A stretch of 64,000 nt of DNA from Mytilus trossulus (taxonomy: Eukaryota), in contig NC_086374.1 in the NCBI RefSeq assembly GCF_036588685.1, positions 65,286,001 to 65,350,000 of the forward strand, read 5' to 3'. Of this stretch, positions 22,154 to 63,420 are shown piece after piece; the stretch's first letter is position 1; each line of letters starts with the position of its first letter. The notes beneath the pieces are model-generated. The model saw only the letters and a program-made list of their open reading frames with translations, was not told the DNA's origin and did no database searches. The translations under genes were made by a program, and so were the position numbers.

Positions 22154-22200
22154 TATAGAGGGTGCCTTGAAGCCAGGGCATAGTATTACAACTACAATTA

Positions 22201-32453: not shown

Positions 32454-32715
32454 CTTCCTTGCACTCCACTAATATTTCGATTAAGAAGACGGTTACTGGT
32501 CGATTCTTCTATCCCAAATTTTTCCTCTGTAAGTAGAGGAAGTCGTAATTGACAGTTTCTCGGATCACAAGGATCAGTTGAACTAAACTTGTACACCATA
32601 GTCAACTGACAATTGTTGGTTTCTGTATATCTTGTTCCACTGGCTACTTCTTGAGACGGATATCTTGTTCCACTAGGAACTACTTGAGACGGATATCCAG
32701 CAGACTGTTCCTGGA
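32454..32715 (-). pseudogene. Exon-like ORF of an unknown repeated gene/pseudogene (QEQSAGYPSQVVPSGTRYPSQEVASGTRYTETNNCQLTMVYKFSSTDPCDPRNCQLRLPLL...)
   Basis: ttatag| acceptor and AG|gtaatt donor on the minus strand, 262 nt open, internal 33-nt duplication. Confidence 0.5.
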
Positions 32716-35937: not shown

Positions 35938-36447
35938 TTGCCTTTAAAATGGCCCACAATACTTATACCATAGACTCGTACGAGTTTGTCAGTAGAGGGT
36001 TAAAAGGAGGATATGGTATCCCAGTTTACAACGAATTCGAACTGAACTATTGCGGCTGGCCAAACTGAGAAATTCTCTACATCGACCATTAAACCAGAGG
36101 TAGAGGTTGGTTATGCCTCTAAAAAAGCACATATCACTTATGCCCTTGACCCGTAAGAGTTAGTCAGGAAAGGATAAGGAGGGGGGTACTCTGGTATATC
36201 ACAAATTCGAAAATGAACTATTACCGGCTGGCCAAACGAAGAGATTCCCCACGTGGGAAATGATACCAGAGGAAGAGGTACTTATTGCCTTTAAAATGGC
36301 CCATAATACTTATACCCTAGACCCGTACGAGTTTGTCAGTAGAGGGTTAAAAGAGGGAAATGGTATCCTGGTTTACAACGAATTCGAAATGAACGATTGC
36401 CAGCTGGCCAAACTAAGAAATTCTCCACATCGACCATTATACCAGAG
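35938..36447. repeat. Satellite patch of three ~173-bp monomers (A-B-A')
   Basis: tgcct(t/c)taaaa...accagag recurs at ~35939, 36114 and 36286. Units 1 and 3 are more alike than either is to unit 2. Confidence 0.85.
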
Positions 36448-36898
36448 TTTTTAGACAGTAGATAGATTATTAGATAATAGAAAGTCTGATACATGATAGC
36501 TGATCAAGAGGAGGGCAGGTCTTTTTGGGGGATGTTGGGATCGGGTATTTTTAAGCTCAGGATTTCGGAATTGGTCCTTTTAGGATCAGGGAATTCTTTT
36601 ATCAAATTCCGGGATGTCAGGATTTAAATTTCTTTGAATTCAGACCTCAAGATTTTATGTTTTAAAGCCCGGGATTTCAAGATAAGGACCCCTCCACCCC
36701 CCACCCCCCTCTCAACTCATTTCAAGAAGACTATGACTTTGTTAAAATATAATTTTGTTTATTAGTATTGGCCTAGTAAAAACAGTTTATTCATATCCAA
36801 TCAAGATATTACTGTTCTTAATTCTAATGAAATATTTGCCATTGAATGGCATGCAGCAATTACATGTATTAAAAAACATGTAACCATGTTTTTTTTAG

Positions 36899-37054
36899 AG
36901 GGAAACCACCTCGACCAAGAAGAAGATCTAAATCAGCCTCATCAAGAGTCAGACATTATTCTCCAGATGTTAGAAACAGAGCAAAATATATTGTTAAAGA
37001 ATACTACACAGAAAGTTCAAGTGCTGAATCTGAAGATGAAATTCATGTCAGAAG
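36899..37054 (+). CDS. AKNA: Duplicate of exon 17177-17332 (copy 2; may be non-functional)
   Basis: Same length, AG/GT intact, open frame, G>V and V>I changes. Confidence 0.6.
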
Positions 37055-37677
37055 GTACTGGTCTTATGAGAAAAAAATGTAGTTTGTTCTTGTAAAATTT
37101 GGGAATTTAAAAAAAGAAAGTAATAAAAACAACAAAATAATCCCCTGACCCCTTCCTCTAGAATTAGGTGAATTAAAAGGAAAAGGATAAAAAACAACTC
37201 TTTTGTCTTCTAATTAAAAAGGACTTTGACATTGAGGTATGTATTTAGTTTGTAATGTGGTCTTAATTGTCTTGTCAAGGCTCATTGTTGAACAAAAAAA
37301 GTTAAAAACAAGCACAAACTTGTATTAACATTTTTTCTTGCAACTTGTAAAAGTAAAAACACAAAAATACTAAACTCCGAGGAAAATTCAAAAAGGAAAA
37401 TCAAAAATCAAAAGGCAGAATCAAATGTCCAAACACATAAAACGAATGGATAACAACTGTCATATTCCTGACTTGGTACAGGCATTTTCTAATATAGAAA
37501 ATGGTGGATTGAAAATGGTTTTATAGCTAGCTAAAGAATGTCAGATCAACCTGAATTTTATAAATGGCCTTCTAAACATTTAAAGATATCACATATCACA
37601 TAAGTAATTTCAGTTGTCCAGCATGAAATTGATTTAACTTGTTCAACAAAATGTATATGCTCTATTTTTTTCTGCAG

Positions 37678-37723
37678 GGGGAGAAACAGAGGAAGAAAAG
37701 GTAGAGGAAGAAAATACAGAAAG
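37678..37723 (+). CDS. AKNA: Duplicate of exon 17767-17812 (copy 2)
   Basis: Identical exon, splice sites intact, read-through frame open to 38113. Confidence 0.6.
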
Positions 37724-40700
37724 GTAAAGCTAAGGTTTCGTGCTGGGGGTCAAGGTCAAAGTAATGAGCCAAACAGTGGTAGTCATGGCAACACTGTGAA
37801 CATGTCACCTAATATCTCTGGCACACTTAGTACTATTTCTCGTCTGTCGTCTGCCAATCAAAGCACTTGTAGTCCTAATACTGCTGCACTTCCATCTGCT
37901 AATCAAAGTACTGGTCAACTAGATGTCCATTTCATACCACGTGTCAGCACTCCTGTTACTATAGTGACAGATGTCAAAACTAACTTTGCTTCAGACTCTG
38001 AAGGGGTATGTTGTGCATGTGCATCTGTTGGCTATATAGATGATGTTTCCTTTCGTAGATTGCAATGGTCTGTTTCACTGTTTTTGCTTGTCGATATCAT
38101 TAGTGAAATTTGAAATTGTGCATGAAGAGTAAAGTAATGTAAAAACTATAGAATACATTAAGTTATGAATGAATGAATGCTCAAAGTATGTAAAAAAAAT
38201 TGGTTGTGTATTTTACATGGCATGAATTTCTTTGAGTTATTTTTTTATGGTCCCATAGGTTGAAAATTATAAGAACTAAACTAGCAAAACTGCCTTTAAT
38301 TTAATTCAAAATCAAAGCAGTAATATTACTTGCTAATATACTCAATTTATTGACCTGCATATATACATATACATATACATTCCAGCAATTTTAAGCCACC
38401 GACTTTTCATCTTTTCTGCTTTATCCTGACTGTTAGAGCTAGTTAGTTTCTCTTTTTTTGTCCTATGCAATGAATGTGTCAAAGAAGTGGCATAGAGAAC
38501 TGAGATTCAACGTGACATCAACATTCAGACTTAGTCTGTTGTAAAGTTTTTCATGACAACACTAACTTTCTCAAACTTTCGGGGATACTTGAACCTAAGC
38601 TACTTCTTGGTAAATCTGAAGCAAAATTTTGTAAGTATTTTTGTTTAACATTCTGTATTTTTGTGTAGTCTGCATCATTTAATGTCCAAAAGCCTAACAA
38701 AGTGATCCATTGTTCTGTATTTTCCTGCAGCGGAGTCAGCATTAAGTTTCAGTTTGTGATTTCAAACACCAACAACTGTCAAATATTTACATAATTTTAG
38801 ACAAAATTTAGACAGCACTTTTCTCCTTTATCAAGAGATATCTTTCTGACCAAAATTTAGATTATTTTATGCCCTGTCTTAGATTATTCCTATGTACCTT
38901 ATCCATCTAGAGGTTTTGTTGAATTAGTTTCCATGATGTTGTGGTTGCATCAACTTGAAAATTAATTATCATTATAATGTAAACTTTTTGAAATATGTGC
39001 CTTATTATGGTTTTGACCCAGATTCCATGGTTCACTGAACATGGAAATGTAATAGTTTGGACACTTAAACACTATAAAAGAACCAATAAGATTTTCAACA
39101 ATAATAGTACTTTTATTGCTAGGCACCCTCAGTTTCTGGCTTGCATGTAAGGGTAATGTATAGTGAACTGGACGCCATTCTGATTTAACACACAGGCATG
39201 TGAAGATATCAATTCACAGCTGTTAGTATATAACAATCATAAATTGTAATTCATCATGGGTTGATGTCTTAATAATCATTTAACATGAAGTCTTTTAAAA
39301 CATAATACTTGAAATAGTCAAAGTTGATGTTTTTATGTAATTTAATAATCTGATAATTGAGTTTTGTGTCTTTAAAAATAAAAATTGTTGTACATGTACC
39401 TGTTTGATTAAATATTCAACAGAAAAATCTGGCTATCAATTTGGTAGGGTTTGTGGTCTAGCAGCTGTTTACAGTTTTTTTTGCAATTATCAATAATTCA
39501 TTCAAGCAATGCTTTTACAAATTTAATATGTGGTTACTGAACACAAAATGAAAGTCAACTTGAATACTGATTTTCCCTTTTATCATCTAGAGGTTATGGT
39601 TTTTAATAGACTGACAACGGCTCTTTGTGTTTTTTGCAACATAGATGATTTAGTTTTTGCCATTCAGGAGTTATAATATTTGATATGTTGGAAATAATGC
39701 ATAGAATGTGGCAGGTAAAAAAGCCTGAAATTGTCAATTTGACAGCTCATAATTCCTTTTTCAAATCTCAGTATTAAAGATTGAGAAAGGAGTAAAGAAA
39801 GTTTTGACTACAAAAAAAGTCACTTTTTCAACACAGTGTTGATTTTCAATTATCTTAGATTCAAATAAATATGATCAACTGTGTGTGATAGTTTAAATCA
39901 ATGAAATTAATAATGCTGTTTTGTAAAAAGCTAATAAATACATTTAAGATTTTTTTATACTAACTTTAATGCCATGTAGAATTATAACCAGTAAACTCTT
40001 TTGTGGTAGTGTAACTTTTGATAAAGTTGAAATTAATTATAATTGGTGCGTCAATGTCAGAGCATAGTATGTTTATTACAACTTCAATAGTACATTTGTA
40101 CAAACGAAATATTGGTATTAATTTGGTTGAAAACTTGTTTCATAACTTGCACCCTGTTACTTTTCAAATGGCAGTTTCTCATTTTTTTAACTGTCAAGGT
40201 TCTTTGTATCAAAGTATGGCTCTCCATACTTTATCATTTCTCATTTAGTATTTGGCGAACAAGATCCAGGCTGGAATTACAATCTTGACATATGCTTTAA
40301 GACAACTGGATAATTTGACACATTTGAAGATTTTAAAATTGTGTTTTTTGTGAAGTGTATTTTAATGTGTGATTTGACCATACTAATTTGCTCTTTATGT
40401 TTCATTTGTATTGCTAGATAATTTTGTTCATTGTAGATAGTGAATATTTTGTATTCCTTTTATTCTTTTCAATATTTTAAAAATGTATTTTTCTACCATG
40501 TCAAATGATATTTATTCAATCATTGATAATAGTAACTATAGATTATTAAATAATGGTAGGAAATTAATGACATATTTCAGAAAATATATTTTTCTTTCCT
40601 TTTTATCGTGTAACTAATGTTTATTTATTTAACATAGAAAAAAACATTTTGATTTAAACAGTATATGTTTCTTTTCAATTTGGAAATTGTCTTGACTGCC

Positions 40701-40736
40701 ATTTAAACAAAATTAATTCCTTTATCATTTTTATAG

Positions 40737-40883
40737 GCTAGATCAGACTATGAGGATGAACTGAACCGATCACTTAATTTGACGGAAGAAATCGATGGTT
40801 TGACACGAAAAATGATGGACACCGTAGATGGAGAATTAAGACGTGCAGGAAGGAAAAAAGAATTTCGCTCATCTATTTGGTAG
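40737..40883 (+). CDS. AKNA: Duplicate of terminal exon 23172-23318 (copy 2)
   Basis: Acceptor and TAG intact. D>E and R>K plus three synonymous changes. Confidence 0.6.
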   Translation, partial: ARSDYEDELNRSLNLTEEIDGLTRKMMDTVDGELRRAGRKKEFRSSIW

Positions 40884-43800
40884 CACAGGAAAATCTCTTG
40901 CTTGGAATTATAAAAAAAAAAAATGGAAGCTGTGATATTCTGATAAGGTTCAGAACAAGATGATATAGTTAAGAAATAATTAACCAAGATAATGTAGCTC
41001 AACAATTAGACATGAGAAACTTTAGTTGATGCCTTAAATACATTAAATGATTGCCCATGACAGTATAATTAAAAAAGTGCTGGTGCTTTGTATACTAAAA
41101 AAATATATATCCTTTAGCACCGTAGAATATCATTTGTTTCTACAATACAATATAAAACTTCATTAGAATTGTATTATGATGAAAGACGTTGCATTTATAG
41201 ATGTTTTTTAAATGTTTGACCAATCAACTATATACATTGTCTGTGATATTTTTAATTTATTATAACTTATTTATATTGTTTTTTATGTTTATACCAATAT
41301 GTCTTAACAAGGATGCTTGTTATTAACTTTTGAATGAAAATTTAATGATATTTCTGAATATTGAAGTTGCAATACTTTGAGGCAATTAAAAAAGAAAAAA
41401 TCTCTATTCAGCAAAATGTTGCAATTTCTTTTTTGTATTAAAAAGTAACAGAATAAATCAGAATATCTTTTCATTTTCCATCTAAACAGACTTCTAAACT
41501 AATCTGAATTTTGATTTTTGTATGTCTTTATAATGTTTTATAGATGATAAACAATATGTGTAATTTTTAATTCCATCCAGTTATTATTTATTCTAGTATA
41601 TGTTTTAAAGTTTTACATTTTTTCATGAAGGATATTTTCCATTCCAGATATTTGTTTCAAGTTTTTTTTTGTATAATGTTTTATTATGTTTCATTTTTAT
41701 ATCTGATTCCATCCAATTTTATTATGTGGGTGATTTATGTTTTAATTTGTGTTTTATTTTAAACAGTATATATGTTTGTCTTTAGTACTCTTTACACAAA
41801 ATTTACTATCTTAAGTTTTCTTTCCGTCCCACACATATCAGTATTTTATTGTTATTAAGCTGATACACATCCATGAGGATTTTATGTTAAAACAATCTCA
41901 AGATAGAAATGAACATATCATTATCATTGTATCAAATACCATATCGTATTGTCATTTGCTCTATGGATTTTTTTGCTAAAATTTGTCAAAAAAGTATGAG
42001 GATAATTATGATATAGATTTTAACAATGGATACACAATCTTAATGGTCTCCCAACCAAATAAGGAGTTTATCCTTTAAAATAAAATACCTAGAGTTGAAA
42101 TAATCAAATGAAATTTCTTTGGAAATGTTGTTCATTACATTTAATCTGTCGTGTAAAAATGTTTCTATATGTAAAAAAAAAATCTGTTTTAAAAACCTGT
42201 TTAATTACATCAATTCTCTTGAAACTTGAAATGAAAATTCTATATTTAAGTTAAACAACAACAAATGGAAGTTTTTAACGACCTTTGCACGTCGGTTAAG
42301 ACAAACAAGAAAATTAATATTTTTTATTAATAAATCTCTTTAACTAAAATTGATCTAAATACAAGTAAACACTTAAAGTCTTATTTGTGTGCCCAAGTAG
42401 TTTATGTATAAAAAGAACCTATTCTGATTTTTAATGCACACCATTTGTTGATTTAGGTAGATGGATTTTGGGGGTTTGGATCACTCATGTCTATATTTTT
42501 TTTTGTTACTTTTTGTCTTGACTACATGTATTATTTCTTTTAAGTTTATTTCCCTTGATAATACTATGTCATTTCGCCTGTTATAAAGAGTTGTCTCATT
42601 GGCACTTGTACCACATCTCTGCATATTTTTAAAATAGTTCCATAAATGAAACATACGTAGTGCCTAAATAATTATTACAAAAGTATTTAAAATTCACCTT
42701 ACATTTTGTATTTGCATTTTCATTTCTGATACAAAGCATAGTTGGAAATGTAGTATGAAGTTATTGTAGGAAAATCAAAACTTTATTAAAAATACAATGA
42801 AACATATTCATGTAAATAAATCCATATTTTATTTTACATTTTCTGATTATAGTCATTTTATTTTTACTATCATGAACCACGAAAGATGTTATTTTCTTCT
42901 TCATGATAAAATAACAAAAATTTGATACATTTTTGTTCTTGTCAAATGACAAAAATGAGGTATTAATAGTAACTATCTTATTTAAGATTTAAGGATGAAA
43001 TGGTCAGTTTTCATTATTCTTATATACCTCTGTATTTTATGTGCCTCAACGAATTCTGAAGAAGTAATTTTACTTCTTTTTATGAAATAAGCAGAATGTA
43101 GTTTTTAAATGTATTTGAAAAGGTGAGAGGGAGAGCTCTGTGATCACATAAGCAAATTATTCAAATAACATTTATTTTGATTTCCATCCTTATTTATCAA
43201 AAAATTCAAACAAAAGCTGACATTAAAATGTATTGCTTATTAAAACAGTTCTTAAAAATGTAAAAAATAATCTTATGTTTCTCACTCAAAAGAATTTGTA
43301 TTTTTTTTTATTGTTTGAGTGTCTCATTGTTAATCCAAATAGAATACATCTTATTTAATGTATCAGTACACATATAATAGTTGCATCATCATTTAAACTT
43401 TGACCCAATTACATATGCATTAATCATGATCAGTATTTATTTGACGTTTTTAATTGATGACCATTATATATAAGGAAAAGTATATGTTAGAAGTTGTCAT
43501 GAACAGAGAGATGTGATAAGGACATTTTCTGGTCCATGGAATCTTAATTTCACTATGTAATAAATATATATCAATTATCATCTTTTACATGTCAGAGCTT
43601 ATCAGATGTTTGGAATACATTAAATATATTATTCTTATATATTACATTTTGACCCCAAACATCAAATGGTCTAATGTATGAAAAAAGCTGCAAAAAGTTC
43701 TTAAATTTCACATTTTGTAATTGAAATTTAGATATAAACATCTTCACCAAACAAGATATATGCTTTAAGATGTCTTTTACAAAGATAAAAAAAAAAGCAT

Positions 43801-44537
43801 TGCAAATATTTTTCTTGGGGTTACTTATGAAATATTGGAAAAAAATATATGGCAATTCTGAATTATTTATGATATCAATGTTATATTATCATTTAATTAG
43901 TGTACTGAAATTGACATATTTAATTTCATTAAAATTATCTATATTCAGACATTCCATATCTTTCATGTTGGTAATTTTAGGGTCTAAAAAGACTTTATCA
44001 CATCTCATTCTGTTGGAGTTACACAAACAAGATTTATCAATGTATTTTTAGAGAATAAAATACAAATAAATTATATTTATCTACAATTGACTCTTCTTAT
44101 TTATTTCCATTAGAATACACCAATTGCACACATTATTCAATGATACTGACAATTATTTTAGGCTTACTTGTAACAAAGATTGCAAAATGTGAGATATAAT
44201 TACAATGCAACAGTAAAAACTATTTTATAATAAAATTAGAAGATGTGGTATGAGAGCCTTAATGAGATAACTCAAACTAAGTCATAGTATGTCCCAAAAA
44301 AAAATTTAAAAATGAATAAAACATTATTGGTCAAAGTATGGCCTTGGCTGCTACCAAACAGTTAGTTATATAGAGCTCAAAATGACTAGTGTAAAACAAT
44401 TCAAACAATAAACCCAACTGTATACAAAACAAGAAACACTGATGAACCACACCTACAAACAACAACCACTAAACACCAGGTTCCTGGCTTTAGACAGTTG
44501 CAAACAAATGAAGTGTGTTTGAATGTTTTAACCTGTT

Positions 44538-45160
44538 GACTTGCTAGACAACCTCAAAAGCAATGTTCACTTCTTTTCAAATGACACTTTCGTGTATCTA
44601 ACATTATCATCACTGACTGCCAGACCCTCTTATCAGACTCACTTATATTGGAACAATTGGGGCACGAATGGTTGATGCCATTTAACTCAGACAAATGTGA
44701 AAGCCTCAAAATAAAAATATAGCAACACACCATAAAGTTTAATAACAAAAATACCGAACTCCAAGGAAATTTCAAATGAGAATGTTCCTTATCAAAAGGC
44801 AAAATCAAAAGCTCAAACACACCAACGAACGGGAAAGTTTTAACAACTGCCATCTTCTGGACTTGGAATTTCCTAATGTGGAAAATGTTAATACACAATA
44901 TATGATCACATATCAAAATCAGCAGGTAAAGCAAAAATATAAGGGTTACCAGTATAATAGATCTAACATGGAACTCAAAAATAAATAACATCACAAATAA
45001 GGCAAATGCATCACCAAGACTTGTTAGAAGATATGTTTTAAAAACAAACAGATTAAAAACAAAAGAATGTCCTACAAAAATATGTCAGACCAAAATTGAA
45101 TATTGAAGTGTTGTCTATGGCAACAAAAAAAAAACAAGAACATAAAATGGAAATGATTCA
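44538..45160 (+). mobile_element. Degenerate CR1/L2-group LINE RT C-terminal fragment, interrupted at ~44720-44980
   Basis: Translates with frameshifts as DLLDNLKSNVHFFSNDTFVYLTLSS (FADD motif decayed), DCQTLLSDSLILEQLGHEWLMPFNSDKC, INNITNKANAS, RPKIEY. Confidence 0.75.
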
Positions 45161-47204
45161 AATTAAGGAAACTAACTCTAAATGTTTATTTTCAACCTCT
45201 TGTATTAGTACATCGTTCATATATAGCTGTGTGCTATGGCGTTTTTTTTTCTGTATTGTTATAGTAATGGGTTTGTCTTTAAACATAAATAAAATTAACG
45301 AGCCTTCGTTTAGACCATATGTTAATTTGGTGCCTATCTAAACCCCAAAAGCATGATTCAAAGACTGGAACAGAACAAAACTGCTGTTCAAAACTCATAA
45401 ATCTATGGACAAAAAACAAAATCGGGGTAACAAACTAAAACTGAGGGAAACGCATTAAATATAATAGGAGAACAACGACAAAACATTAAAATGTAACACA
45501 CAGAAACGGACTAAGCATTAGACAAAATCATATGAGAATAACAAATATAACATCAAAACCAAATACCTGAATTTGGGATAGATAAGTACCGTGACACGTT
45601 TTATAGAAATGTGAATTTACACTGAAAAATAAGAGAAAAAACGACACAACGGAAACACAACGTTAAAATGTAACACACACAGAAACGAACTATAATATAA
45701 CAATGGCCATATTCCTGACTTGGTACAGGACATTTCTATAGGAAAAAATGGTGGGTTGAACCTGGTTTTGTAGCATGCCAAACCTCCCTCTTTTAAATAT
45801 GAGTTTTTGGTGCTACTTTGAAAACCAAGATGGCTGTCACAACGGAACACAGTTTAATTACCACCAATCCCTTCCATGCTTACCAGACAAAATAAAAACA
45901 TTTTGACCTCATTACGAACACAATTGATACTATGGTTGGTGTAGAACGCCATATTGAATATTCTTTCCTTTGAAGCCAACATTAAAATTTAAGAAAAAGT
46001 ACCTGATAGTCTTGATAAAAAGGCACATATTTACGTCCATTATTTTACTTTTCACACATGGCAAATATAATTTGAAATTCCCAAATAACCCAAAACTCCT
46101 TATAAAAATCCAACAATGTCTTTCCACACTGATATATGTCCACATTTGTAATATTATAAAACACATTAATGTGTTATGTAATGATAATCTGAATATTTTA
46201 TTTGATAATATTAATGAGTGATGTTGGTATATGTATGCTAAAACTTTGAAAAAACAAATTGTTGAAAATTTACTTATTCAGAATTATATATTTTATAATA
46301 AGTCTAAAACAAGTGGACATACAAGTTAAAGAAGTATATATATAATCGTTTATGTAGTTGCATTATTGCAAATCAAACGTTTCAAAAAAAAAAATGTTAA
46401 AAACTAACATTTATATAAATATATTATTAACAAAAAATATGATCGAAACTAAAAAATAAATATATGCAACATTTTCTTTTGACCCTGGAATGCAAAGTGC
46501 CAATCAAAAGAGTAAAATTTCATTTCTGCCTCACTTTTTGGTTAAAATTTAGAAAAATACACCTCTTATTCTGATGGTTTTTTTTTCTTAAAATTTGAAT
46601 ATGACCTCTGAAGTGGCAAAACTGTACACTATCAAGCAATTTGTTTTGCATACCAAAGCGTTGATTTAGTACCTTGCTTATACAAAATTAATATTTCTAA
46701 CACCAAAGACAACTTTAGACCTAATTTCGTTTAGAAAAAGCCATTACTTGACACAAAAAGAAATTAACACAATAAAGAAAACAACGTCAATAGTTAATGA
46801 TTGTCTCTGATCTGTTATGATTATGATTACTGTCCAATGTCCTGTCCGGGAATGTTACAAAACTTTTTTGTAGGCTATACATCTATCCAGAGACAGGAGT
46901 GTATATATGTCTCTGATCTATCTGAAATGATAATAGGAAAAAAGTTATATTACATTTTTGAAATAGAGCAGTCAACACACTTGTGAATACAAATGTCGTT
47001 GTTAATAAAACATCATTTGTCTAAAATATAAAATAAAATATCTCTGTAAAATGCATTATTAAAATTCTTCTTCTTAATCTCAAACATATTTAGTTTTATC
47101 TAATTAATAACGCACGCAAGTTTTTGAACAGTTCAGGAAAATATTTTCTTTATTCAGACATGTTCTTTCAAATAAACATGGATATTTGATTATAAAGTCA
47201 CTAT

Positions 47205-47205
<1 letters not shown>

Positions 47206-47275
<70 letters not shown>

Positions 47276-47434
47276 TCTTTATTTAAAGAGGGTTGCACAG
47301 TTAGCTATAAAGCTAATCTTCCCTGAGGCCCTCATGAAATACAATGAAACATAACAAACAATTACAAAATATCAAACAGACACACATACATGAATAATGA
47401 AATAACAAATTGTCATGAAGTATACAATTTTCAT
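47206..47434 (-). mobile_element. LINE-like 3' end with AATAAA and (TTA)~22 tail
   Basis: Minus strand ...gggaagattagctttatagctaactgtgcaaccctctttaaataaagaa(tta)n. Absent from the paralogous sites ~31420 and ~57955. Confidence 0.65.
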
Positions 47435-47474
47435 AATAAACTCATCATAGATACCAGGACTAAATTTAGTAAAT

Positions 47475-47518
47475 ACGCCAGACGCGCGTTTCGTCTACAT
47501 AAGACTCATCAGTGACGC
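47475..47518 (-). ncRNA. Minimal type I hammerhead ribozyme in a retrozyme-like repeat (~47435-47617)
   Basis: gcgtca CTGATGA gtct-tatgt-agac GAAA cgcgcGTC tggcgt. Stems I and II pair; stem III is the palindrome acgcgcgt. Confidence 0.88.
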
Positions 47519-47664
47519 TCGAATCCAAAACAAAAAAGTTAAAAAGCCAAAGAAATTACGAATTGAAGAGCATTGAGGACCAAAATTCCTAAAAGTTTTG
47601 CCAATTACAGCTAAGGACATCATTTTATAGTTTTTGGTGCAACCAGAGACACATAATAGTGTTA

Positions 47665-48337
47665 TATACTAGTCAACAAAAGAAACGATACACGACTTTT
47701 TTTTTAAATTAAAGATACAGTTTTCCGTTTATAGGACCAATATTGAAGGTAGTTATACTTAATGACCATGGAAATATAAATCCGTTTACAAAAAAAATGT
47801 TTTTGCTTTCATGACGTCATTTTGCGAAATTGATTTGCCATAGACAGTATGTCATGTAAAGTGAATTTAAAATAGCGGTAACAATCTGAAAACTTATCCG
47901 AACGGTTCCAAATTTACAGTGTGTTGTTTCCATATCTAAATCATCTATTTTCTTTATTTTTTTGCTTTTTTTGAGATTTCAGAAATCACTTTTTTTTACC
48001 AAAAATAAAAAAAAAAACAATATTTCAACCAATTAGTTACAAAATGATCTTAACTTGATTAGCATATTGAATAATTTTAAACAAATTGGAAACTCATTTA
48101 GTACTTAAAAAATTGTGTATCGATTTTCTATCTAACTTTCCGCCAAAATAATTTGCACCCTATGATTGTTTTCACAGAATTTAGTTACTTTTCGACATGT
48201 TTTGATTTTTATTATCATATGTGCATACTTTTCAAATGAAAGCTTTTTAAAATAGTGTATCTCATTTGTTTATATTTAATATTTTTTGATAAATTTTAGT
48301 TCAAAGTCGTGTATCGTTTCTTTTGTTGACTAGTATA
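47665..48337. mobile_element. MITE with ~34-bp perfect TIRs in a TA site
   Basis: tatactagtcaacaaaagaaacgatacacgacttt / aaagtcgtgtatcgtttcttttgttgactagtata. Empty sites at ~31470 and ~58015. Confidence 0.92.
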
Positions 48338-49908
48338 TGTCTCTGGTGCAACATACACTACTCTGCTGTTTTTCTTGTTCACTAGACACTTATTATAATG
48401 GAATATTGTTTGTATCACATAGTACTAAATTGTCATAAGCAACGCATTTGGTATAACAAATCAGGAACATATATTTTGACATTATACTGTTCCCAGTATA
48501 AATGGTGAAGGAACTGCTATTTATCTGCAGCACCTGGGTGAAACTGTTATCGGTAACGTTCATGTTCAATTTCCGGCCCAACAAGGTGAATAGACACTGG
48601 TCTGTCTAGTTTTTAAGATATATTTTTTCCTTGGATGTCTTTTGGGTTTTTGTCTCATTAACGTTTACCTAATAGTCCCGTCTACATAGTACCGTCTTCA
48701 TCTTTTCATCACTATAAGGTATAGTATTTGGTTTTCAGCAAGAACATTGGGATATAATACTTTTGATGGTGCTCAGCAGCATTTTAAATTACGAAATTAT
48801 TTTGATTGTTACTTGATTAACCTAATCTCGAACACTTTTAACCAACGTTATGAAAAGCAGTGTCAAATCTTTATTTATACTGAAATCAGAAGATGTGGTA
48901 TGCTTGCCAATGAGAACTTTCCACTCGACACCAAATGATGTCGATGTAATTCACTGTATTACGGTTTTCAATAATGAACCAACCACATATTGTATAATAT
49001 ATAGTAAATTATGAAAAGCAAAATATATTCTAAACAGTGAGGAAAAACAACGGTCTTTTTTATGTACATATTAATAAACAGAAACGCAGAATAGAGTGAA
49101 GTTTCACACGATTGAGAATACTAGACAATGGTTTAGCAACACTATAAACAAGAACAAACTTTGAGAAACCGGTTGAATAAGGATTGACTTGTCAGGTTGA
49201 CACACACACATACGTGCACAAACCCACACACACTAAAAGGCTAAGGATATAAAGTATTAATCTAAGAGCTGGCATAGTTATGAAAGCTAGTTAAAAATCA
49301 ATCACAACTAAAAAAAAATCATGATTTCTAGACTATAATATCAATCAGTATACAACCACTGGATTAAGTGTACAATACGTCATACAGAGCCTGAAGAAAA
49401 CTTAACTTGTCCATTCATACTTTGGATAAATGACCAGTAAACTACATAGTAATAAGTTCATGCCAGGCCTATCATGCTGACTACTGGGCTTATTATACCA
49501 GCAGGGAAATTTACCCAGTTGTTGTTACATATAATTAAAGATACATTGCTTTTAATTTGATATATACATAACACGCAGTTGTTAGAATCAAGACAATTGG
49601 CATGTCAACTCAATTACGAAGTTTATTAGTACTAAAAAGTTGAAATAATCACCAATTATTTCGAAATATATTGCCAAATCTCTGTATGGCCAGTTATTCA
49701 TATAGGGGTAAACTAGAGTGTTCCGAACGATTTCAACACTTTGTCAACAGGTAACCTACAGAATAGTCTGCATCAATAATATTTCATATCTTCACAGGAG
49801 GCTAAGCTCTAGCATTGCAATACCTTCGGGTACAAAAAAATCCACTGGCAGTGATATTGACCGTGTGGTTGTTAATAGTTATCAAAGGTACCAGGATTAT
49901 ATCTTAGT

Positions 49909-49951
49909 ACGCCAAACGCGTGTTTCGTCTACATAAGACTCATCAGTGACG
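49909..49951 (-). ncRNA. Hammerhead ribozyme variant (GUU site) with an adjacent decayed core duplicate
   Basis: cgtca CTGATGA gtcttatgtagac GAAA cacgcGTT tggcg. Partial repeat at 49951-49975. Confidence 0.7.
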
Positions 49952-50742
49952 TTTCGTCTGCATAAGAATCATCACCAAAGACATCAAAATTTTAATGTAA
50001 TATATGATCACGTATGCCCTCTATATATAAATCTAATCAAATCAATTGAGAGGTTAAAGGAAATAGGGGTTTAAGAGTTATGAAAACCAAACATTCATAT
50101 ATTCTGACATCAGACTCGGACTTCTCTTGAACTGAGTTTTAATGTGCGTATTGTTATGCGTTTACTTTTCTACATTGGTTAGAGGTATAGGGGGAGGGTT
50201 GAGATCTCACAAACATGTTTAACCCCGCCGCATTTTTGCGCCTGTCCCAAGTCAGGAGCCTCTGGCCTTTGTTAGTCTTGTATTATTTTAATTTTAGTTT
50301 CTTGTGTACAATTTGGAAATTAGTATGGCGTTCATTATCACTGGACTAGTATATATTTGTTTAGGGGCCAGCTGAAGGACGCCTCCGGGTGCGAGAATTT
50401 CTCGCTACATTGAAGACCTGTTGGTGCCCTTCTGCTGTTGTTTTTTATTTGGTCGGGTTGTTGTCTCTTTGACACATTCCCCATTTCCATTCTCAATTTT
50501 ATATAAGTAGTGCCTAATTTTGATATTTGTGGATAAAACAACCATGTTTGCGGTTTTAACTAGCGGGATATCCCTTTTTTACTCACCAGTCAATGTTGAT
50601 CGAATTAAAGGTCTCGTTAAATATTTTGATGTATACGGTCAAAGTCAAAATCGTAAAGAAAAACTACGATATCTAAACGATGATTCTAGTAAATACTCAA
50701 AATAAAAAAATAAAATATCAGGAAACTTTTTTCTTCTATTAC

Positions 50743-50971
50743 CTTTCTTGCATTCCACTAATATTTCGAGTAATATGACGGTTGCTGGTCGATTCCTCTA
50801 CACCAAAGTTTGCTTCTGTAAGTAGAGGAAGTCGTATCTGACAGTTTCTCGGATCACATGGATCAGTAGACCTAAACTCATACACCATAGTCAACTGACA
50901 AGTGTTGGTTTCTGGATATCTTGTTCCACTAGGAACTAATTGAGACGGATATCCAACAGACTCTTCCTGGA
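50743..50971 (-). pseudogene. Paralogous exon-like ORF (229 nt, open)
   Basis: Lies within ORF 50739..51095. Splice dinucleotides are at equivalent positions. Confidence 0.5.
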
Positions 50972-52289
50972 CTACAACATAATCATATGTAACATGTATG
51001 AAATTGATAGTGATTCTTTTTTTTTTAATAAAATGTAAAGATGACATACTTCTAATAAACCGTTTGTCCCACCGTTTTGACGCACTTTTCAACATCTGTT
51101 TTGTACCACTCGATTTTTCGCGATGATTAACATAATAAAAGTGTTTTTAAATTGCATGATAATGGGTGTTTTTCTTTTCTTTCTGGACTCTTCTGGTTTG
51201 GTCTGATGTAGAATCATTCGGAGAATAGGGAATAGTAACCTTTAATTATTGTAATGTTTACCGGTAAAATTTCACATAACTCTAGAATGCAGAGAAAATA
51301 TATGAAGCAAAAAATAACCTGCAAAAAGAAAGAATGAAATAAACATACTAGTAATGATAATATGAAATATCAAAATAAATTAAAAGTTATTATAACTTAA
51401 CTACATATCATATTTTGAACGTTCTTACCATTCATTTCAACTATCAACTTCAATTATCGACGATATCCATGTGAACCAGAATATACTAAAAACATAACAA
51501 AAAATATCTCGCTCTTTGTATTGTAAATCAAGTATCAGTAGTTATTAGAAGAAAATCATTAATTTATTCATCGAACTTCTAATGAAACATTTATATCGTA
51601 TGATTTAAAAACTTAGAAAAATTGCGCCCCAGTAAAAAGTGGATAACAACGATCTTGTTTCATTTCCTTTGTTATGATTAATAGTAGCACAATTAAATAT
51701 ATGATTTAATGAGTACCCGTAATGCATGTTATACTATTAAACCGTTGAAATGTGAACTTGTTTGATAAGATTTGATCTTTTTCGATTACTATCATTTTAT
51801 AGATCATTTGGTGCGTATTATAAGAATACATTTGTACTATTAACTACTTTAAGTACGTTAGATAAGGAAGAAGATTTATAATATGAAAAAGATGAAAAAA
51901 GTGGCTACTAGAAAAGGACGAAAGGTCTTAAAAAACCCACAAACTGGAATTTATCTTTGTTTGAGACGGCTCCATTAATTCGGAATAACTTTAGTTCTTA
52001 TCGAAAAAAACTGCCACATTTATGAGAAAATGCAGTACGATTGCCAAATATCAAAATTTAAGTCATAATGTAACATAAAATATTGTCTCCCAACGAATAT
52101 TGTACGCGGACATTAAAGAATTATAAAAGAAATAATAAAAACCCAATTTGTTCAGAGAATCATTGAAGGTCTTTCCACATCATTTTTTTTAAATTACTGA
52201 TGAGAAGCTAACTTCGAATTACTCAAAGAAATTATTGGCGTCCAAGCATATCATGTGTCTTCATTCTAATTCTTCTAATGGTCTTCACC

Positions 52290-53849: not shown

Positions 53850-55576
53850 AGTATATGCTGATCAACTTAATGCTTGCACACGTAAACTGAAACTAACTTA
53901 TATTTCATTATACAACCATTTATTATAATAAATTAATTTACAGGAATCGAAACAATAGAAAGTGTTTCTTTTGATCTTTGAGTCAACTTTGCTTCAAAGA
54001 ATGATTTATAAGTTTTGAAATCGTATGACTTGTTTCTTTTCATTGAATAGCACAACTCCAAGAGAGCGTTTTAGAATAAAAAACAATTATTTTTACCTCT
54101 GTTAACTTCTCAACGAAGATATTTTTCTCTCATTGAATAATTACAATTTTTACGGTTTTTATTCATCGTCCTTCGAATATGAAATAAAAAATGCCACATA
54201 TACATTTAAGACTGTCTTATTTACTGACGGTCCTCAAAAATAAGATGTTTGGCTTTTTCTGATAAATAATTGAATTACAGTACAAAAAACAGGTTCCAAG
54301 CAAAGTGGATATTGAAATATATGTGTTGAAAGAAAACTTTGAACTTTTGTACAGCTTTGTTTTTGTTTTGAGTATACATTTGATTGTATATATGGATAGT
54401 CTACGAATCAAGTTGATAGCTGAAATGAATGGTATGAAATCTTAATATAAAATATGTAGTTAAGTAATAATAACTTTTAATTTATTTTAATAATGATATA
54501 TATAATCATTACTATGCTTACTTAAGTCTTTCTTTTAACAATGCCTCTGCTGGTGGACTATTAGTCCCCGAGGGTATCACCAGCCCAGTAGCCAGAACAT
54601 CGACACTGGCATGAAAATACGGATTTTTTGTGTTATTAAAATTTGCTGTTACAAAATGATAGAAATTATTATAAATTAAGGAATATATCTTTCTCGTGCA
54701 AAACTCTGATTCTTTTCACGGATTTGGCTATACTTTTTGGACCTTTTGGATTATAGCTCTTCAACTTTGATATAAGCTTTGTATATTAAATATTTTGGCA
54801 ACGAGCATCACTGAAGAGACATGTATTGTCGAAATGCGCATCTGGTGCAAGAAAATTGGTACCGTTAGTTTTATTAATTAAATAGCTGAAATGAATGGTA
54901 TGAAACCTTAATATAAAATATGTAGTTAAGTAATAATAGCTTTTAATTTATTTAAATAATGATATATATAATCATTACTATGCTTACTTAAGTCTTTCTT
55001 TTTAACAAGTCATATTTACTTTATATTTATTTTCACTGCATTCTAGAATAGTGAAAAATTGCCCGTAAACATAACCATAATTAAGGTAATGGCGTTAACC
55101 TATTTTTCCTTCAACTATTCCCAGAATCAGCAAAAAAGCTTCATATTTACCTTATTAATATCAATTTGATTTTTTTTAAACATTTATCATGTATTATGTT
55201 TCTTGTCACTTGTGTATACTATGTTTGCATTTTAACCCGTCAGGGTTTCACTTTTTTCAATAAAGTTTATGATATATATATTTAGACTGCTATCGACCGT
55301 TTATGCTACAAAACGGTGGGCCAAACAGTTTATTAGAAGTACATCATTTCAATTCTTTTAATCAGAAAAGAATCCCTATCAATTAGACATGATTATATAA
55401 TTATGTTGTAGTCCAAGAGGAGTCTGTTGGAAATCTGTCTCAAGTAGTTCCTAGTGGAACAAGATATACGTCGCAAGTAGTACTAATTAGTGGAACGAGA
55501 TATACAGAAACCAACAATTGTCAGTAGACTATGGTGTACGAGTTTGGGGCAACTGATCCTTGTGATCCAAGAAACA
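53850..55576 (-). repeat. Inverted partial copy of the block (~60100-61400 / ~32555-34045)
   Basis: The reverse complement matches, e.g. ttagactgctatcgaccgtttatgctacaaaacggtggg (~55282) versus ~60321-60359. Confidence 0.9.
54805..54848 (+). ncRNA. Minimal type I hammerhead ribozyme in a ~340-bp retrozyme-like insertion (~54541-54882)
   Basis: gcatca CTGAAGA gaca-tgtat-tgtc GAAA tgcgcATC tggtgc. Palindromic stem III atgcgcat. Confidence 0.88.
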
Positions 55577-58500
55577 GAAAGTTCCATACCACAAAGAAAT
55601 GGTTAGGATAAGCTTTGGGGTGGGGGCTTTGGCTCAAACCTTTTAGGAATTAGGGGAGAAACAAGGGTTTAACGGTTTAAGGAAAAAAACTTAAGTACAA
55701 TACATAATTTAAAAGCAGTCTGATGGAGCGTTCAAACATATTTATGACAATATCTTGAGCACTAAAACAAAAATAAAAATTCATATCATATAAACAATTC
55801 TAATTTTTTTTACTACAGCTATTCTATGTCAAAAACCTATTATGTGTCAAATAGTTAATTACAATCCAAATTCAGATCTTTATCAATCGTGGATATTGTT
55901 TCCACCCCCCCTCCCCCAAATTGAACAGGGTTGGACCTCTACTTACGTATCCAATTACGCTCGACGAAGCAATTTATTTCATTAAGGTTATGGATGTCTC
56001 TCTGGTATTGTTTAAAGTCTCACCCAATATATTTTTGATTTTGTATTTACATTTTGTCTTAGATCAAATTTATTCGTTCAAAGTATAATCACTTGTTTTT
56101 GTGTTTGTTAATATGTCTTTTGGTTGAGTTAAGCCATTTCCATTGATATTTTATAGTTTAACTTTCAATGTTCTGATGTTACACTATTGTATTAGGTGAC
56201 GATGAAGGTTGGTACCTATCAAAACGTTTAAACCCGCTGTATTTATTTGCACTTGTGACCTGTCCTAAGTCAGGAACCTGATGTTAAGTGGTTGTTGTTT
56301 GTTGATGTGGTTCATAAGTGTTTTTTTCTAAATATTATATTTGATCGTTGGTTTTCCTGTTTTAATGGTTTTACTCAAGTCATTTTTTGGGACCCTTTAT
56401 AGCTTTCTGTTCGAAGTGAACCACGGCTCTGTGTTGAAGATCGTACTTTGACCTTACTTGATGGTTTACTTTTACAAATCGTGACTTGGACGGAGAGTTG
56501 TCTCATTTGCACACTTACCACCTTACTCTATATAGGACATTATTGGAAATCCATACCTGATTTTTTTATTTATCTTACAGAACCAGTTGCAAGCCTTTAA
56601 ACTAAATGTGTCATAATAATACTTTGTTGATTCTAAATTTAAGATTTTAGTGCTTATTTGGTATCCAAGATGGCCGTCACGACGGAACACAGGTTACAAT
56701 CAACCTTTCCATGCCTACCAGAGAAAAAAAACTTTTGCATAAACATATTGACCTTATCACGAACATAATTTATACTATGATGGTTGGAGAACGCCATATT
56801 GAATATTTATGTTCTTTCTTTTGAAGACAACATTTAAATTTCAGGAAAAGTACCTGACAGTCTTAATAAAACGGAACATAGACACTTTCATTATTTTACT
56901 TTTCATACATGGCAAATATAATTTGAAATTCCCAAATAACCCAAAACTCCTTATACAAATCCAACAATGTCTATCCACACTGATATATGTCCACATTTGT
57001 AGAATTATAAAACCCATATATGTGTTATGTTATGATAATCTGAATATTTTATTTCATAACATTATTTTGTTATATTGGTATATGTATGCTAAAAATTTGA
57101 AAACATTTGTTATCAGTGAACACAAATTGTTGAAAATTCACTAACTCAGAATTATATTTTATAATAAGTAAAACAAGTTATAAGTTAAAGTAGTTTATAT
57201 ATATATATCTTTTATGTAGTTGCATTATTACAAATCAAACGTTTCAATATGAAAAAAAAATATATGTTCAAAACTAACATTTATATATATATTATTAACA
57301 AAAAATATGTCCGAAACTTAAAAAAAATATATGCAACATTTTCTTTTGACCCTAGAACGCAACAAAAATTGATCAAAAGAAAAGTGGCAATCCAAAGTGT
57401 AAAATTTCATTTCTGCCTCATTTTTTGTTTAAAATTTAGAAAATATACCTCTTATTCTGATGTTTGTTTCTTAAAATTTGAAAATGACCTCTAAAATGGC
57501 AAACCCGTACAATATTAAGCAATTTGTTTTGCATACCAAAGTGTTGATTTAGAATCTTGCTTATGAAAAATCAATTTCTAAAATCAAAGACAACTTTAGA
57601 CCTGATTTCGTTTAGAAAAAAAGCCACAACTTAAACAATAAAGAAAACAACGTCAACAGTTAATGATTGTCTCTGATATGATTTAAATTCATAATGTTAT
57701 GATTATGATTACTGTCCAATGTCCAGTTCGGGAATGTTACAAAACTTCTTTGTAGGCTATACATCTATCAAAAGACATGTGTGTATATATGTGTCTCTGA
57801 TCTATCTGTAATGATAAAAGAAAAGATTTTTTTTTCATATTTAATTCATGGATAAGAGCAGTCAACATACTTGTGATTACAAATGTTACATATATATATA
57901 TAATTCAGACATGTTCCTTCAAATAAACATGGATATTTGATGGTAAAGTCACTACTCAATGACATCATGTTCTAGTTTTGGGTACAACCAGAGAAATACT
58001 ATAGTATTATATATATATATATATGTCTATGGTGGAACATAAACTACTCTCCTGTTTTCCTTGTTCACTAGACACTTAAAATGGAATATTGCGTGCATCA
58101 CATTGTCCTAAGGACTGCATCGGGTATTACAAATCAGGAACATATAGATTGATTTTCTGTCCCAAGTACAAATGGTGTAGGAACTGCTATCCACTTATCC
58201 GCAGCACTTTGGTGTTATCGGTTACTTTCATGTCCAGTCTTTCATCTTTTATGCTTCACTATGTGTATCTTCGTTGCTTTCTTTTATTTGAATTCATTGA
58301 TGACAATCTTTGTGTTACTTAATCGTGGCCATTTATAGCAAAACAAATTAAATACACATTGTCCTGTTAAGTGATAAATATAAACAAAAATCCCTGGATG
58401 TCTTTTAGGTTTTTGTGTAATAGAGTTGACGTCTCATTAACGTAAACTCCACAGTTATGTTTGTTCAGCTTTTCCTCATTGTGTGTATAAGATATATTAT

Positions 58501-59996
58501 TTTCTTTTGAGTGAGAACATATCATACTAGTGAAAGTAGCAACATTTTAAAATAACTTTGATTGTTACTTTATTAACCCAATCTGGAAGTTAAAAAGCAC
58601 TATAAACCAACCAAATCAGTTTTTCAAAAGACATACGATGTTGAAGAGTTGTGAAAACCAAATATTCCGAAAAGCAGTGCCACATTTTCTTAACAGTTAG
58701 GATTCTACTTCGTCAAAATTATCTCCCCATTACGCCAGTTAGTTTTCACAACCGTAAAAATGAAAGCCATTTTTGGGATGACGCGCTGCCTATTTTGCTC
58801 TTGAAAACCGATAAATTTATCTGCATAGCACCATTACGATCCTCATATGTCAGTTGTATTTTAAAAGACAAATGTATCTACTAGCTAATTAGCAACAGTT
58901 AAAAAACTTAAATTTATTGTCTAATCGGTTGTCAGGTGGAATTTTGAAAATTCATAAAAAAAATCTAATTGAATATTTTTTAGGAAGGGCAGACTAGATT
59001 TGTTTAGTGGTTGAAGACTATTAACCTTTAGTTATCACAAACAAAAAACAATATTTTATTCGAAGATATGCTTTTCCATCATCCGACTTGAAAGACTGTC
59101 GTCAAGTACTTTTAATAAAAAATATCTATTAGAACACACCTACTCTATTTTTATGATTCATTAGTTAGGTATTTCACTTGACCCATATATTTCATCTTTT
59201 AGTACTGTGATTTTTTTATGTTATAAAGTCAACCTGTAGGTTTGATATATAAAATGATTGAATCTGAAGCGAGATGATGTATCAAATATTCTTGATTTTC
59301 AAGTAAAAATATTCAACTCAAACATGCCCAACATAAAAAGGTGCACTCGATTTTCTCTTTTGAATACAATTGTTACCCATTTTTTAGATTTTTTTCTTGA
59401 GTCACATAAGGCAAGGGCAGACACGAAAATTACCGAACTAATAGATTGATATGTTTTCCGTCCGTGGTAATTTTTTTTTAAATCAGAGGTTATGCATTTT
59501 CTACATCCAACTTGATAGATTGCCATGTCGTCGACTTGATATCTAATTGTTCTGCTTAACGATGTAATAGATAAATTGAAACCTTATGCAAATGGTGTTT
59601 TTATAATAGAACACTTCGTAATTGAGAAGAAAATTGTAATTTGATTTGTTTCTATTAACTTTAAATTTTTTGTTACTATAGTAAACATTACAGTAAGCAT
59701 TTATTGCCTTCTCTAATAAAGAGTTTCGATTCTTTTGTTCTATTTCAACCAGGTTTCCGCCTGTTACGGAAACCTTTAGATTCTATCTATGGATATAAAA
59801 ACCTAGTTTCGACAGATTTTAACGGGTTTTACTGGTGTGGTATCTTCTTTATTACTTATCATTTAGTGTTTGTTGAATCAAAAGTCTTGGCCAAAGTTAA
59901 AATCGTAAAGAAAAACTATGATATTGATAAATATTTAACTAGTAAATACTAGTACTCAAAATAAAAAAAAATCAGGAAATCTTTATCTTCAATTAC

Positions 59997-60225
59997 CTCT
60001 CTTGCATTCCACTGATATTTCAATTTAGATGACGGTTACTGGACGATTCCTCTATCCCAAAGTTTTCTTCTGTAAGAAGGGGAAGTCGTATTTGACAGTT
60101 TCTCGGATCACTAGGGTCAGTTGACCTAAACTCATACACCATAGTCCATTGACAATTGTTGGTATCTGGATATCTTGTTCCACTAGGAACTACTTGAGAC
60201 GGATATCCACCAGACTCTTCCTGAA
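59997..60225 (-). pseudogene. Paralogous exon-like ORF with in-frame TGA
   Basis: 229 nt, splice sites intact, TGA at 60020-60022 where the other copies have CGA. Confidence 0.5.
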
Positions 60226-63085: not shown

Positions 63086-63420
63086 TAGGAGATAACTGTA
63101 TTGTATTTTAAGCTCCGACGGCATCAATTGGGGATTTGATGGTCGCACATTAAGTTTACTGGCGACGCGTTAGCGGAGACAGTAAACGGGTATTTGCGAC
63201 CATCAAATCCCCAATTGATGCCGTCGGAGCTTAAAATACAATATTGTTATCTCCATTCTAATGAAACTGACAGAAAACAACGTTAAAACATGTATTTTTA
63301 AAAAATCTGTCATATGCCGTCTGCGCTTGCGCGTAGGTCCCATAGCATCAATTGACTGCCATGTAAGAAAGTGACGTTATCCAATCAAAATGAACGTTAC
63401 AAACGTTGTTGCATTAGAAT
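63086..63420. mobile_element. Crypton-like palindromic non-autonomous element
   Basis: Hairpin with ~60-bp arms (63088-63253), then a second inverted pair attctaatg/cattagaat. No TSD. Confidence 0.6.

What the first reader, a model, noticed from the sequence alone, without database searches (positions are those of the whole stretch)
47206..47617. Retrozyme fragment joined 5' of a LINE-like 3' tail as one copy-specific insertion
Seen on the minus strand, in order: retrozyme-like body, intact hammerhead (47518-47475), ~160 nt of LINE-like 3' UTR ending in AATAAA, then a (TTA)n tail. Both parts share orientation and both are absent at the paralogous sites (~31420, ~57955). Inference: a template-switch chimera in which a LINE RT primed on its own tail and jumped to retrozyme RNA. 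Retrozymes are usually presumed to rely on Penelope-like RTs, so a LINE route would be unexpected.
Basis: partly seen in the sequence, partly recalled or inferred. Interest (0 to 1): 0.7.

Follow-up and report, generated by a model that had tools for sequence, protein, structure and literature searches.

The report
Retrozyme abutting a LINE tail
A piece of a common self-cutting RNA repeat sits directly against the tail of a LINE jumping gene, but its end carries the repeat's own usual insertion signature, so this is likely two separate insertions at one spot rather than evidence that LINEs spread these repeats.

Summary
Anatomy confirmed. A 182-nt retrozyme fragment with an intact type I hammerhead, about 160 nt of an APE+RT LINE 3' UTR and (TTA)23 lie in one orientation and are absent at both paralogous sites. 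The LINE-template-switch reading is not favoured. (1) The retrozyme stops at its family's fixed 3' end (24 of 30 sampled matches end there), the kind of end a Penelope-type RT leaves. (2) TTATTA, a duplication typical of this LINE family, flanks the LINE alone; none flanks the whole. (3) Genome-wide, retrozymes upstream of TTA runs show no sense bias (3 vs 7; 8 vs 13). Best reading: two insertions at one site, probably retrozyme first (0.6). One-event routes stay open (LINE RT switch 0.2; hand-off to a Penelope-type RT 0.15), because exact abutment is rare and population data were inconclusive. A second retrozyme-LINE composite (contig C10) has an internal breakpoint and an outer duplication, so it is the better chimera candidate, but one case is near chance (0.3 expected). 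This scan had already noted the fixed end and the Naiad link on other DNA of this genome. Even a true chimera would be a U6-L1-like by-product, not a mobilisation route.

The parts
47435..47616 (-). 5'-truncated non-LTR retrozyme fragment (monomer positions about 31-208 of a 363-bp unit), one hammerhead only
   Evidence: 92-95% identity to tandem and solo copies
47475..47518 (-). Type I hammerhead, core intact; predicted cut between 47481 and 47480
   Evidence: Rfam RF00163, 33 bits, E 2.4e-4; cut site read from the model alignment, not assayed
47435..47443 (-). Family-wide fixed 3' end of retrozyme insertions, about 41-46 nt past the predicted cut
   Evidence: 24 of 30 sampled motif matches end here; 19 of 23 distinct ends read ATT next
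47434..47439 (-). Junction TTATTA: candidate target-site duplication of the LINE alone; five of its six letters are also retrozyme end
   Evidence: 6-nt match to the tail end; the A at 47434 is in 2 of 41 family copies and in none of the nearest ones
47276..47436 (-). Last ~160 nt of the 3' UTR of a young APE+RT LINE family (likely CR1/L2 group)
   Evidence: 97-98% identity to other copies; upstream ORFs with Exo_endo_phos_2 and RVT_1; 127 exact tail-motif matches
47288..47333 (-). Predicted 3'-terminal stem-loop of the LINE
   Evidence: fold -17.4 kcal/mol, z -1.55, weak
47278..47283 (-). AATAAA before the tail, conserved in the family
47206..47275 (-). (TTA)23 tail of the LINE; the last ATTA is ambiguous with the host target
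47616..47663 (.). Host flank 5' of the insert (minus-strand sense); aligns to both paralogs; 1-nt overlap with the retrozyme, no duplication
47152..47205 (.). Host flank 3' of the tail; aligns to both paralogs

Best explanation
The insert is a retrozyme fragment ending at its family's fixed 3' end joined directly to a 5'-truncated LINE tail, and it likely arose by two successive insertions at one ATT-containing site. Inferred order: first a Penelope-type (likely Naiad) RT/endonuclease cut at the host ATT, started at the retrozyme RNA's usual internal start and copied about 180 nt without duplication. That left TTATTA at the retrozyme's 3' junction. The LINE, whose (UUA)n tail would pair with such a site, then primed there, truncated after about 160 nt and duplicated TTATTA. 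The reverse order (LINE first with an ATTA duplication, retrozyme second into the 5' copy) gives the same sequence but is less likely, because the tail offers 23 other ATT sites. Shown: identity of the parts, fixed end, junction letters, family duplication pattern, lack of orientation bias. Inferred: the enzymes, the order and the number of events.
For: (a) Fixed end: of the first 30 of 6,532 exact matches to the retrozyme 3' motif, 24 end within 0-13 nt (23 within 0-7) and 6 run on; 5 of those 6 end at the same point one unit later. PLE RT initiates at fixed internal RNA sites that match genomic ends, and its endonuclease cuts 5'-ATT-3' (PMC11167929, parts 1-2 of 4 read). The sequence just past the fixed end matches the 5' region of N-terminal GIY-YIG ORF elements in 6 loci (scores 49-62 vs shuffled maximum 41). 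(b) The LINE family makes short duplications overlapping the tail: at least 6 nt in 9 of 47 filtered copies (window copy included) vs 5.6% in shuffled pairs; at least 4 nt in 29 of 47 vs 28%. The window copy scores 6 nt at the retrozyme/LINE joint and shows none at the outer boundary. (c) The A at 47434 is neither the retrozyme's usual T nor the G/T of the nearest LINE copies, but matches host ATTA. (d) No sense bias: retrozyme end followed within 400 nt by (TTA)5 at 3 loci vs (TAA)5 at 7; sense vs antisense retrozyme upstream of a TTA run 8 vs 13 rows; true L1 chimeras are 95-98% sense (PMC11838501 section 21). (e) Tail-like runs and other LINEs do interrupt retrozymes independently (L187, L192).
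Against: Exact abutment is rare: a rough estimate is 0.001-0.15 expected cases for 127 copies, depending on the assumed number of ends and target preference, so the model leans on whole-genome selection across all LINE families. Five of the six TTATTA letters are supplied by the conserved retrozyme end, so the duplication argument rests on one base, which could be a mutation or a non-templated addition (2 of 41 family copies carry A there). Absence of an outer duplication is weak evidence, since about half of the family's copies show none above chance. Both parts are similarly young (3-4 private changes in 179 nt vs 2 in 158 nt), which fits one event as well. A second composite with an outer duplication exists (L150). 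No single-part allele has been seen.
Confidence: 0.6

Rival explanations
1. One reading: one event in which the LINE RT primed on its tail, copied about 160 nt and switched (or read across an RNA ligation) to retrozyme RNA, as in U6-L1 chimeras.
For: Same orientation, clean joint with 2-nt overlap, both parts absent at paralogs, similar youth. Retrozyme circles are abundant in mussel gonad (PMC7229834 section 14). L150 (contig C10) carries retrozyme positions 4-95 joined to a 58-nt tail of the same LINE, inside an older antisense retrozyme with a 7-nt exact (10-nt with one mismatch) duplication around both parts.
Against: A LINE RT has no known reason to land on the retrozyme's fixed end (about 2-3% of a 363-nt circle), which is not the ribozyme-made RNA end. 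There is no outer duplication here and no sense bias genome-wide. L150 is one event (its two C252 copies are 99.97-100% identical over 3,081 nt) against 0.32 expected by chance among 99 copies, and its piece shares variants with the neighbouring array (92% to one unit), so a local template is possible.
Confidence: 0.2
2. One event, two enzymes: the LINE RT stopped after about 160 nt and a Penelope-type (Naiad) RT bound to retrozyme RNA used the free cDNA end, or the open break, as primer at its own start site.
For: Explains at once the exact abutment, the co-orientation, the fixed retrozyme end and the similar ages. [quoted passage not shown]
Against: Needs two different complexes at one break; no precedent in the papers read; only 1 of about 6,500 exact retrozyme ends is joined to a LINE tail within 400 nt; the junction A fits a host duplication without it.
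Confidence: 0.15
3. DNA-level origin: a deletion or repair event joined a retrozyme and a LINE that had inserted apart, or the junction is an assembly error.
For: The region is a patchwork of duplications and indels.
Against: Host bases on both sides are in register with the empty paralogs, so no host DNA is missing; the probable source run matches the 3' flank in one piece, although no independent run spans the junction.
Confidence: 0.05

Closest known systems
Metazoan non-LTR retrozymes, Mytilus galloprovincialis 350-390-bp family (Cervera and de la Pena 2020, PMC7229834; passages, section 14 and Discussion read; supplement not readable)
   Same: Type I hammerhead in 360-363-bp low-GC tandem repeats, thousands of copies (6,532 exact motif matches here; about 5,000 reported there), no LTR features.
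   Different: This copy is half a monomer with one ribozyme, so it could not release a circle by itself; it abuts a LINE tail. Sequence identity to the published clones could not be checked.
Penelope-like element insertion signature (Poseidon_Ac, PMC11167929, parts 1-2 of 4 read; Naiads, PMC8557442, passages read; retrozymes as non-autonomous PLEs, bioRxiv 10.64898/2026.07.22.740005, part 1 of 5 and passages read)
   Same: Fixed 3' end downstream of the ribozyme, variable 5' truncation, ATT at the junction, no microsatellite tail of its own.
   Different: The mobilising enzyme is inferred from the end pattern and a shared motif, not assayed.
U6-L1 and other RNA-LINE chimeric insertions (PMC11838501, abstract and section 21 read)
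   Same: Non-coding RNA copy 5' of a strongly truncated LINE 3' end, same orientation.
   Different: Those are recurrent, 95-98% sense for U6/U3 and flanked as a unit by the duplication; here there is no outer duplication, no sense bias, and the RNA piece ends at its own element's start site.
CR1/L2-group LINEs with microsatellite tails (ZfL2-1 5-bp TSDs, PMC4245944 passages; tail/target overlap in CR1, L2, RTE, PMC6007223 passages)
   Same: AP endonuclease plus RT, short 3' UTR with predicted stem-loop, triplet tail, 4-8-nt duplications overlapping the tail.
   Different: Clade not determined; no Repbase or Dfam library was available. The CR1/L2-group label rests on recalled RT motifs.

Membership tests
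Metazoan non-LTR retrozyme | Type I hammerhead with intact core | tested here: met
   (33 bits, one under gathering); the free-energy minimum of the isolated fragment does not show the ribozyme fold (z 0.24)
Metazoan non-LTR retrozyme | 150-450-bp unit occurring in tandem elsewhere in the genome | tested here: met
   363-bp tandem units, 92-95% identical
Metazoan non-LTR retrozyme | Two ribozymes in tandem at the locus (active, circle-forming copy) | tested here: not met
   single hammerhead in a half monomer
Metazoan non-LTR retrozyme | Self-cleavage and circular RNA expression | not testable with these tools
   no assay; RNA runs not examined
APE-type LINE 3' end | Contiguous with AP-endonuclease and RT ORFs in longer copies | tested here: met
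   L014/L138: RVT_1 E 1e-35, Exo_endo_phos_2 E 1e-6
APE-type LINE 3' end | Fixed 3' tail, variable 5' truncation, short target duplications | tested here: met
CR1/L2 clade | RT phylogeny with reference elements | not tested
   no reference set obtained; label recalled from motifs
RNA-LINE chimera (U6-L1 type) | Same orientation, RNA 5' of truncated LINE | tested here: met
RNA-LINE chimera (U6-L1 type) | Target duplication flanking both parts | tested here: not met
   none at the outer boundary; TTATTA flanks the LINE alone; weak, as many family copies lack one
RNA-LINE chimera (U6-L1 type) | Recurrent independent events with sense bias | tested here: not met
   3 vs 7 loci and 8 vs 13 rows; family-specific: 2 sense events, 1 unrelated antisense neighbour
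RNA-LINE chimera (U6-L1 type) | Both parts arrive together (no single-part alleles) | tested here: inconclusive
   both absent at two ~80%-identical paralogs; public contigs did not resolve the site
PLE-type insertion | 3' end at the family's fixed RT start | tested here: met
PLE-type insertion | Mobilisation by a PLE protein | not testable with these tools
   only a shared motif with N-terminal GIY-YIG elements

The most novel reading that the evidence does not exclude
Retrozyme RNA is captured into LINE insertions in a single event: at this locus by a hand-off in which a Naiad-type RT bound to retrozyme RNA extends the LINE's unfinished cDNA from its own start site (or by a LINE RT switch), and at the C10 locus by a LINE RT switch to an internal site. 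This would be the first retrozyme-LINE chimera class and, for the hand-off, a case of two unrelated RTs building one insertion.
Probability: 0.3. Interest if true: 0.55.

Novelty: new member of a known kind. Interest (0 to 1): 0.22.

Why it matters
If sequential, it is an ordinary nested pair of known mobile elements and adds only a small illustration that a retrozyme's fixed end creates a target for TTA-tailed LINEs. If one event, it would extend RNA-LINE chimeras (U6, U3, 5S) to circular ribozyme RNAs, and the hand-off version would show two RT classes acting at one break. It would not show that LINEs are the normal helper: about 6,500 retrozyme ends lack LINE tails. No retrozyme-LINE chimera turned up in the paper searches made (listings and abstracts only; open-access library).

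Tried and rejected
Closer paralogs that might hold an intermediate state: only the two in the window exist. Population alleles: 20 runs listed, 2 with at least half the words, 1 possibly the source. Seven runs were laid: only X1 (possible source) spans the flank; the right-end contigs of X2 and X3 read like the paralogs; one X4 contig (98 nt, depth 4.8) runs 58 letters past 47205, which hints at an allele without the long triplet run, but its letters were not shown and positions 47198-47230 were skipped as repeat. No conclusion drawn. Other sense hits of the generic patterns: L186, and 6 of the 7 non-window rows examined (L232 was skipped as a duplicate of L231); none has this LINE's tail at the retrozyme end. 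27 of 127 exact tail matches were not listed and not fetched; searches cover them only for exact motifs within 400 nt. A hammerhead-bearing PLE as direct parent: the retrozyme-like ribozyme 1.1 kb past the ORF in L213 is not shared by its sister copies, so it was treated as a separate insertion. Dating by private changes did not separate the parts. The idea that the junction A comes from a LINE sub-lineage was rejected: the two A-bearing copies are 9 and 13 differences away, while the nearest copies differ at only the junction base and two private sites. Duplication search around 30 retrozyme copies gave chance-level matches (no shuffled control run), so retrozymes here appear to insert without one. 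The MITE at 47664-48338 was rejected as part of the insert (48 host bases intervene). The supplement of PMC7229834 could not be read; it holds the mussel sequences that would settle family identity.

Full report
Setting. The window is G000:C2:65286001-65350000 of a 1.30-Gb, 541-contig assembly. The finding lies in one of three ~80%-identical local paralogs.

Observation. On the minus strand the order is host, retrozyme fragment (47616-47435), LINE 3' UTR (47436-47276) ending in AATAAA, (TTA)23 (47275-47206), host. Rfam finds a type I hammerhead at 47518-47475 (33 bits, E 2.4e-4, gathering 34). The three-way alignment shows both parts absent at 31424/25 and 57960/61 with host bases in register.

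The retrozyme part. It matches a 360-363-bp tandem family at 92-95%; a 22-nt motif near its end has 6,532 exact matches. This fits the mussel family of Cervera and de la Pena (about 5,000 ribozymes, 350-390-bp repeats; PMC7229834 section 14; their sequences could not be read). Of the first 30 matches, 24 end within 0-13 nt of the motif and 6 run on into another unit, 5 of which end at the same point one unit later; after removing duplicates, 19 of 23 ends continue with ATT. The window copy ends exactly there, 41-46 nt past the predicted ribozyme cut. A second subfamily ends at the equivalent place. Frangieh et al. show that a PLE RT starts at fixed internal RNA sites that coincide with genomic ends and that its endonuclease prefers 5'-ATT-3' (PMC11167929). 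Following a lead from earlier notes of this scan, I aligned the retrozyme segment just past the fixed end to 30 GIY-YIG loci: it matches the 5' region of the N-terminal-GIY-YIG (Naiad-like) family in 6 loci, scores 49-62 against a shuffled maximum of 41; three higher-scoring hits are ordinary retrozyme copies nearby. So the breakpoint carries the retrozyme's own, likely Penelope-type, signature.

The LINE part. The tail is 97-98% identical to many copies; longer copies run into an RT ORF and an upstream endonuclease ORF (RVT_1 E 1e-35; Exo_endo_phos_2 E 1e-6). An 18-nt tail motif has 127 exact matches, of which 100 were fetched. Among 47 copies kept (at least 93% identity, 5' end inside the stretch, no upstream continuation, unique 3' flank; window copy included), duplications overlapping the tail are in excess: at least 4 nt in 29 vs 28% in shuffled pairs, at least 6 nt in 9 vs 5.6%. 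This agrees with the 5-bp duplications of ZfL2-1 (PMC4245944) and the tail/target overlap of CR1, L2 and RTE (PMC6007223). The clade label is recalled, not tested.

Junctions. 5' boundary: one shared C and no duplication. 3' boundary: the tail's last ATTA aligns with the host target, which reads ATTG and ATGG in the paralogs. Internal joint: retrozyme ...GAGTTTATT, then A, then LINE TGAAAA. The retrozyme normally has T at that base; the LINE has G in 23, T in 16 and A in 2 of 41 copies with intact context, and the two A copies are distant. Read as TTATTA, the joint repeats the tail end and is a typical duplication of the LINE alone. This rests on one informative base and is moderate evidence at most.

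Is there a class? Retrozyme end followed within 8-400 nt by (TTA)5 occurs at 3 loci (window, an unrelated run, and an antisense LINE that truncates a retrozyme), against 7 loci for (TAA)5. An internal retrozyme motif upstream of a TTA run gives 8 sense rows and 13 antisense rows, and none of the 6 other sense loci examined is a retrozyme-LINE joint. Known L1 chimeras are 95-98% sense (PMC11838501). For this LINE family there is one more joint: L150 on C10, retrozyme positions 4-95 joined to a 58-nt tail with a 1-nt overlap, lying inside an older antisense retrozyme whose positions 138-147 appear on both sides. Its two copies on C252 are the same event; a second motif found none and the antisense control found one unrelated neighbour. 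L150 looks like a single insertion and supports the possibility of capture, against my preferred reading of the window. But retrozyme sequence covers 0.32% of flanks in the sense direction, so 0.32 such junctions are expected among 99 copies, and the piece may come from the local array (92% to one unit, 94% over 54 nt to another).

Population test. Inconclusive (details under Tried and rejected).

Mechanism. Best: two insertions. A Penelope-type complex put the retrozyme at the host ATT, leaving TTATTA, and the LINE then primed on that site and duplicated it. Against: exact abutment is expected only 0.001-0.15 times for this family on rough assumptions, and the parts cannot be separated in age. 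Rivals: LINE RT switch (0.2), which must hit the fixed end by chance and leave no outer duplication; hand-off from LINE RT to a Naiad-type RT (0.15), which explains everything but has no precedent in what I read; DNA-level or assembly origin (0.05).

Comparison and verdict. Both parts are members of known kinds. The composite works like a nested insertion and fails two tested features of U6-L1-type chimeras (outer duplication, sense-biased recurrence). The literature already leaves LINEs open as helpers while favouring PLEs, and the genome-wide end pattern points to PLEs. No retrozyme-LINE chimera appeared in searches (listings only). Interest 0.22; 0.55 if single-event capture is shown.

Noticed in passing
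L150 = G000:C10:63853635-63859152 (also L248; duplicates L249, L250 on C252): Retrozyme piece (unit positions 4-95) joined 5' of a 58-nt tail of the same LINE, inside an older antisense retrozyme array, with a 7-10-nt duplication around both parts: a better candidate for a one-event chimera than the window locus.
   Followed up: partly
window 47664-48338: About 675-bp MITE-like element with perfect 36-bp terminal inverted repeats, inserted in a TA-rich stretch, absent at both paralogs, 48 bp from the finding.
   Followed up: no
window 49881-49975, minus strand: Second, short retrozyme remnant (hammerhead core plus 3' tail, 85% identical) with a small internal duplication, 2.4 kb from the finding.
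   Followed up: no
window 54793-54845, plus strand: Hammerhead-like motif of another family (CUGAAGA...GAAA), resembling one seen downstream of a GIY-YIG ORF in L220; not detected by Rfam.
   Followed up: no
LINE family, e.g. L074, L078, L084, L098, L102, L127, L150: Repeated 5' truncation at about 57-59 nt from the end, at the base of the predicted 3' stem-loop.
   Followed up: no
L187 (C10:26383542-26386885) and L192 (C7:68373487-68376872): An antisense LINE of another family truncates a retrozyme inside its hammerhead; a bare triplet run interrupts a retrozyme near its end.
   Followed up: partly
L204, L205, L209 about 900 nt upstream of the GIY-YIG match: The repeats upstream of Naiad-like ORFs contain a stretch resembling the 3' terminus of the second retrozyme subfamily.
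   Followed up: no
L107 (C4:47987265-47992782): LINE copy flanked by an unusually long, about 30-bp imperfect duplication.
   Followed up: no
window 63106-63236: Long near-perfect hairpin (Rfam MIR2619 52 bits, far below gathering 113), likely a small inverted-repeat transposon.
   Followed up: no
window 16741-26679 vs 36447-44187; 28145-34050 vs 44771-51500 vs 55582-61403: Large local duplications at about 90% and about 80% identity, with inverted pieces at 53852-55575.
   Followed up: no
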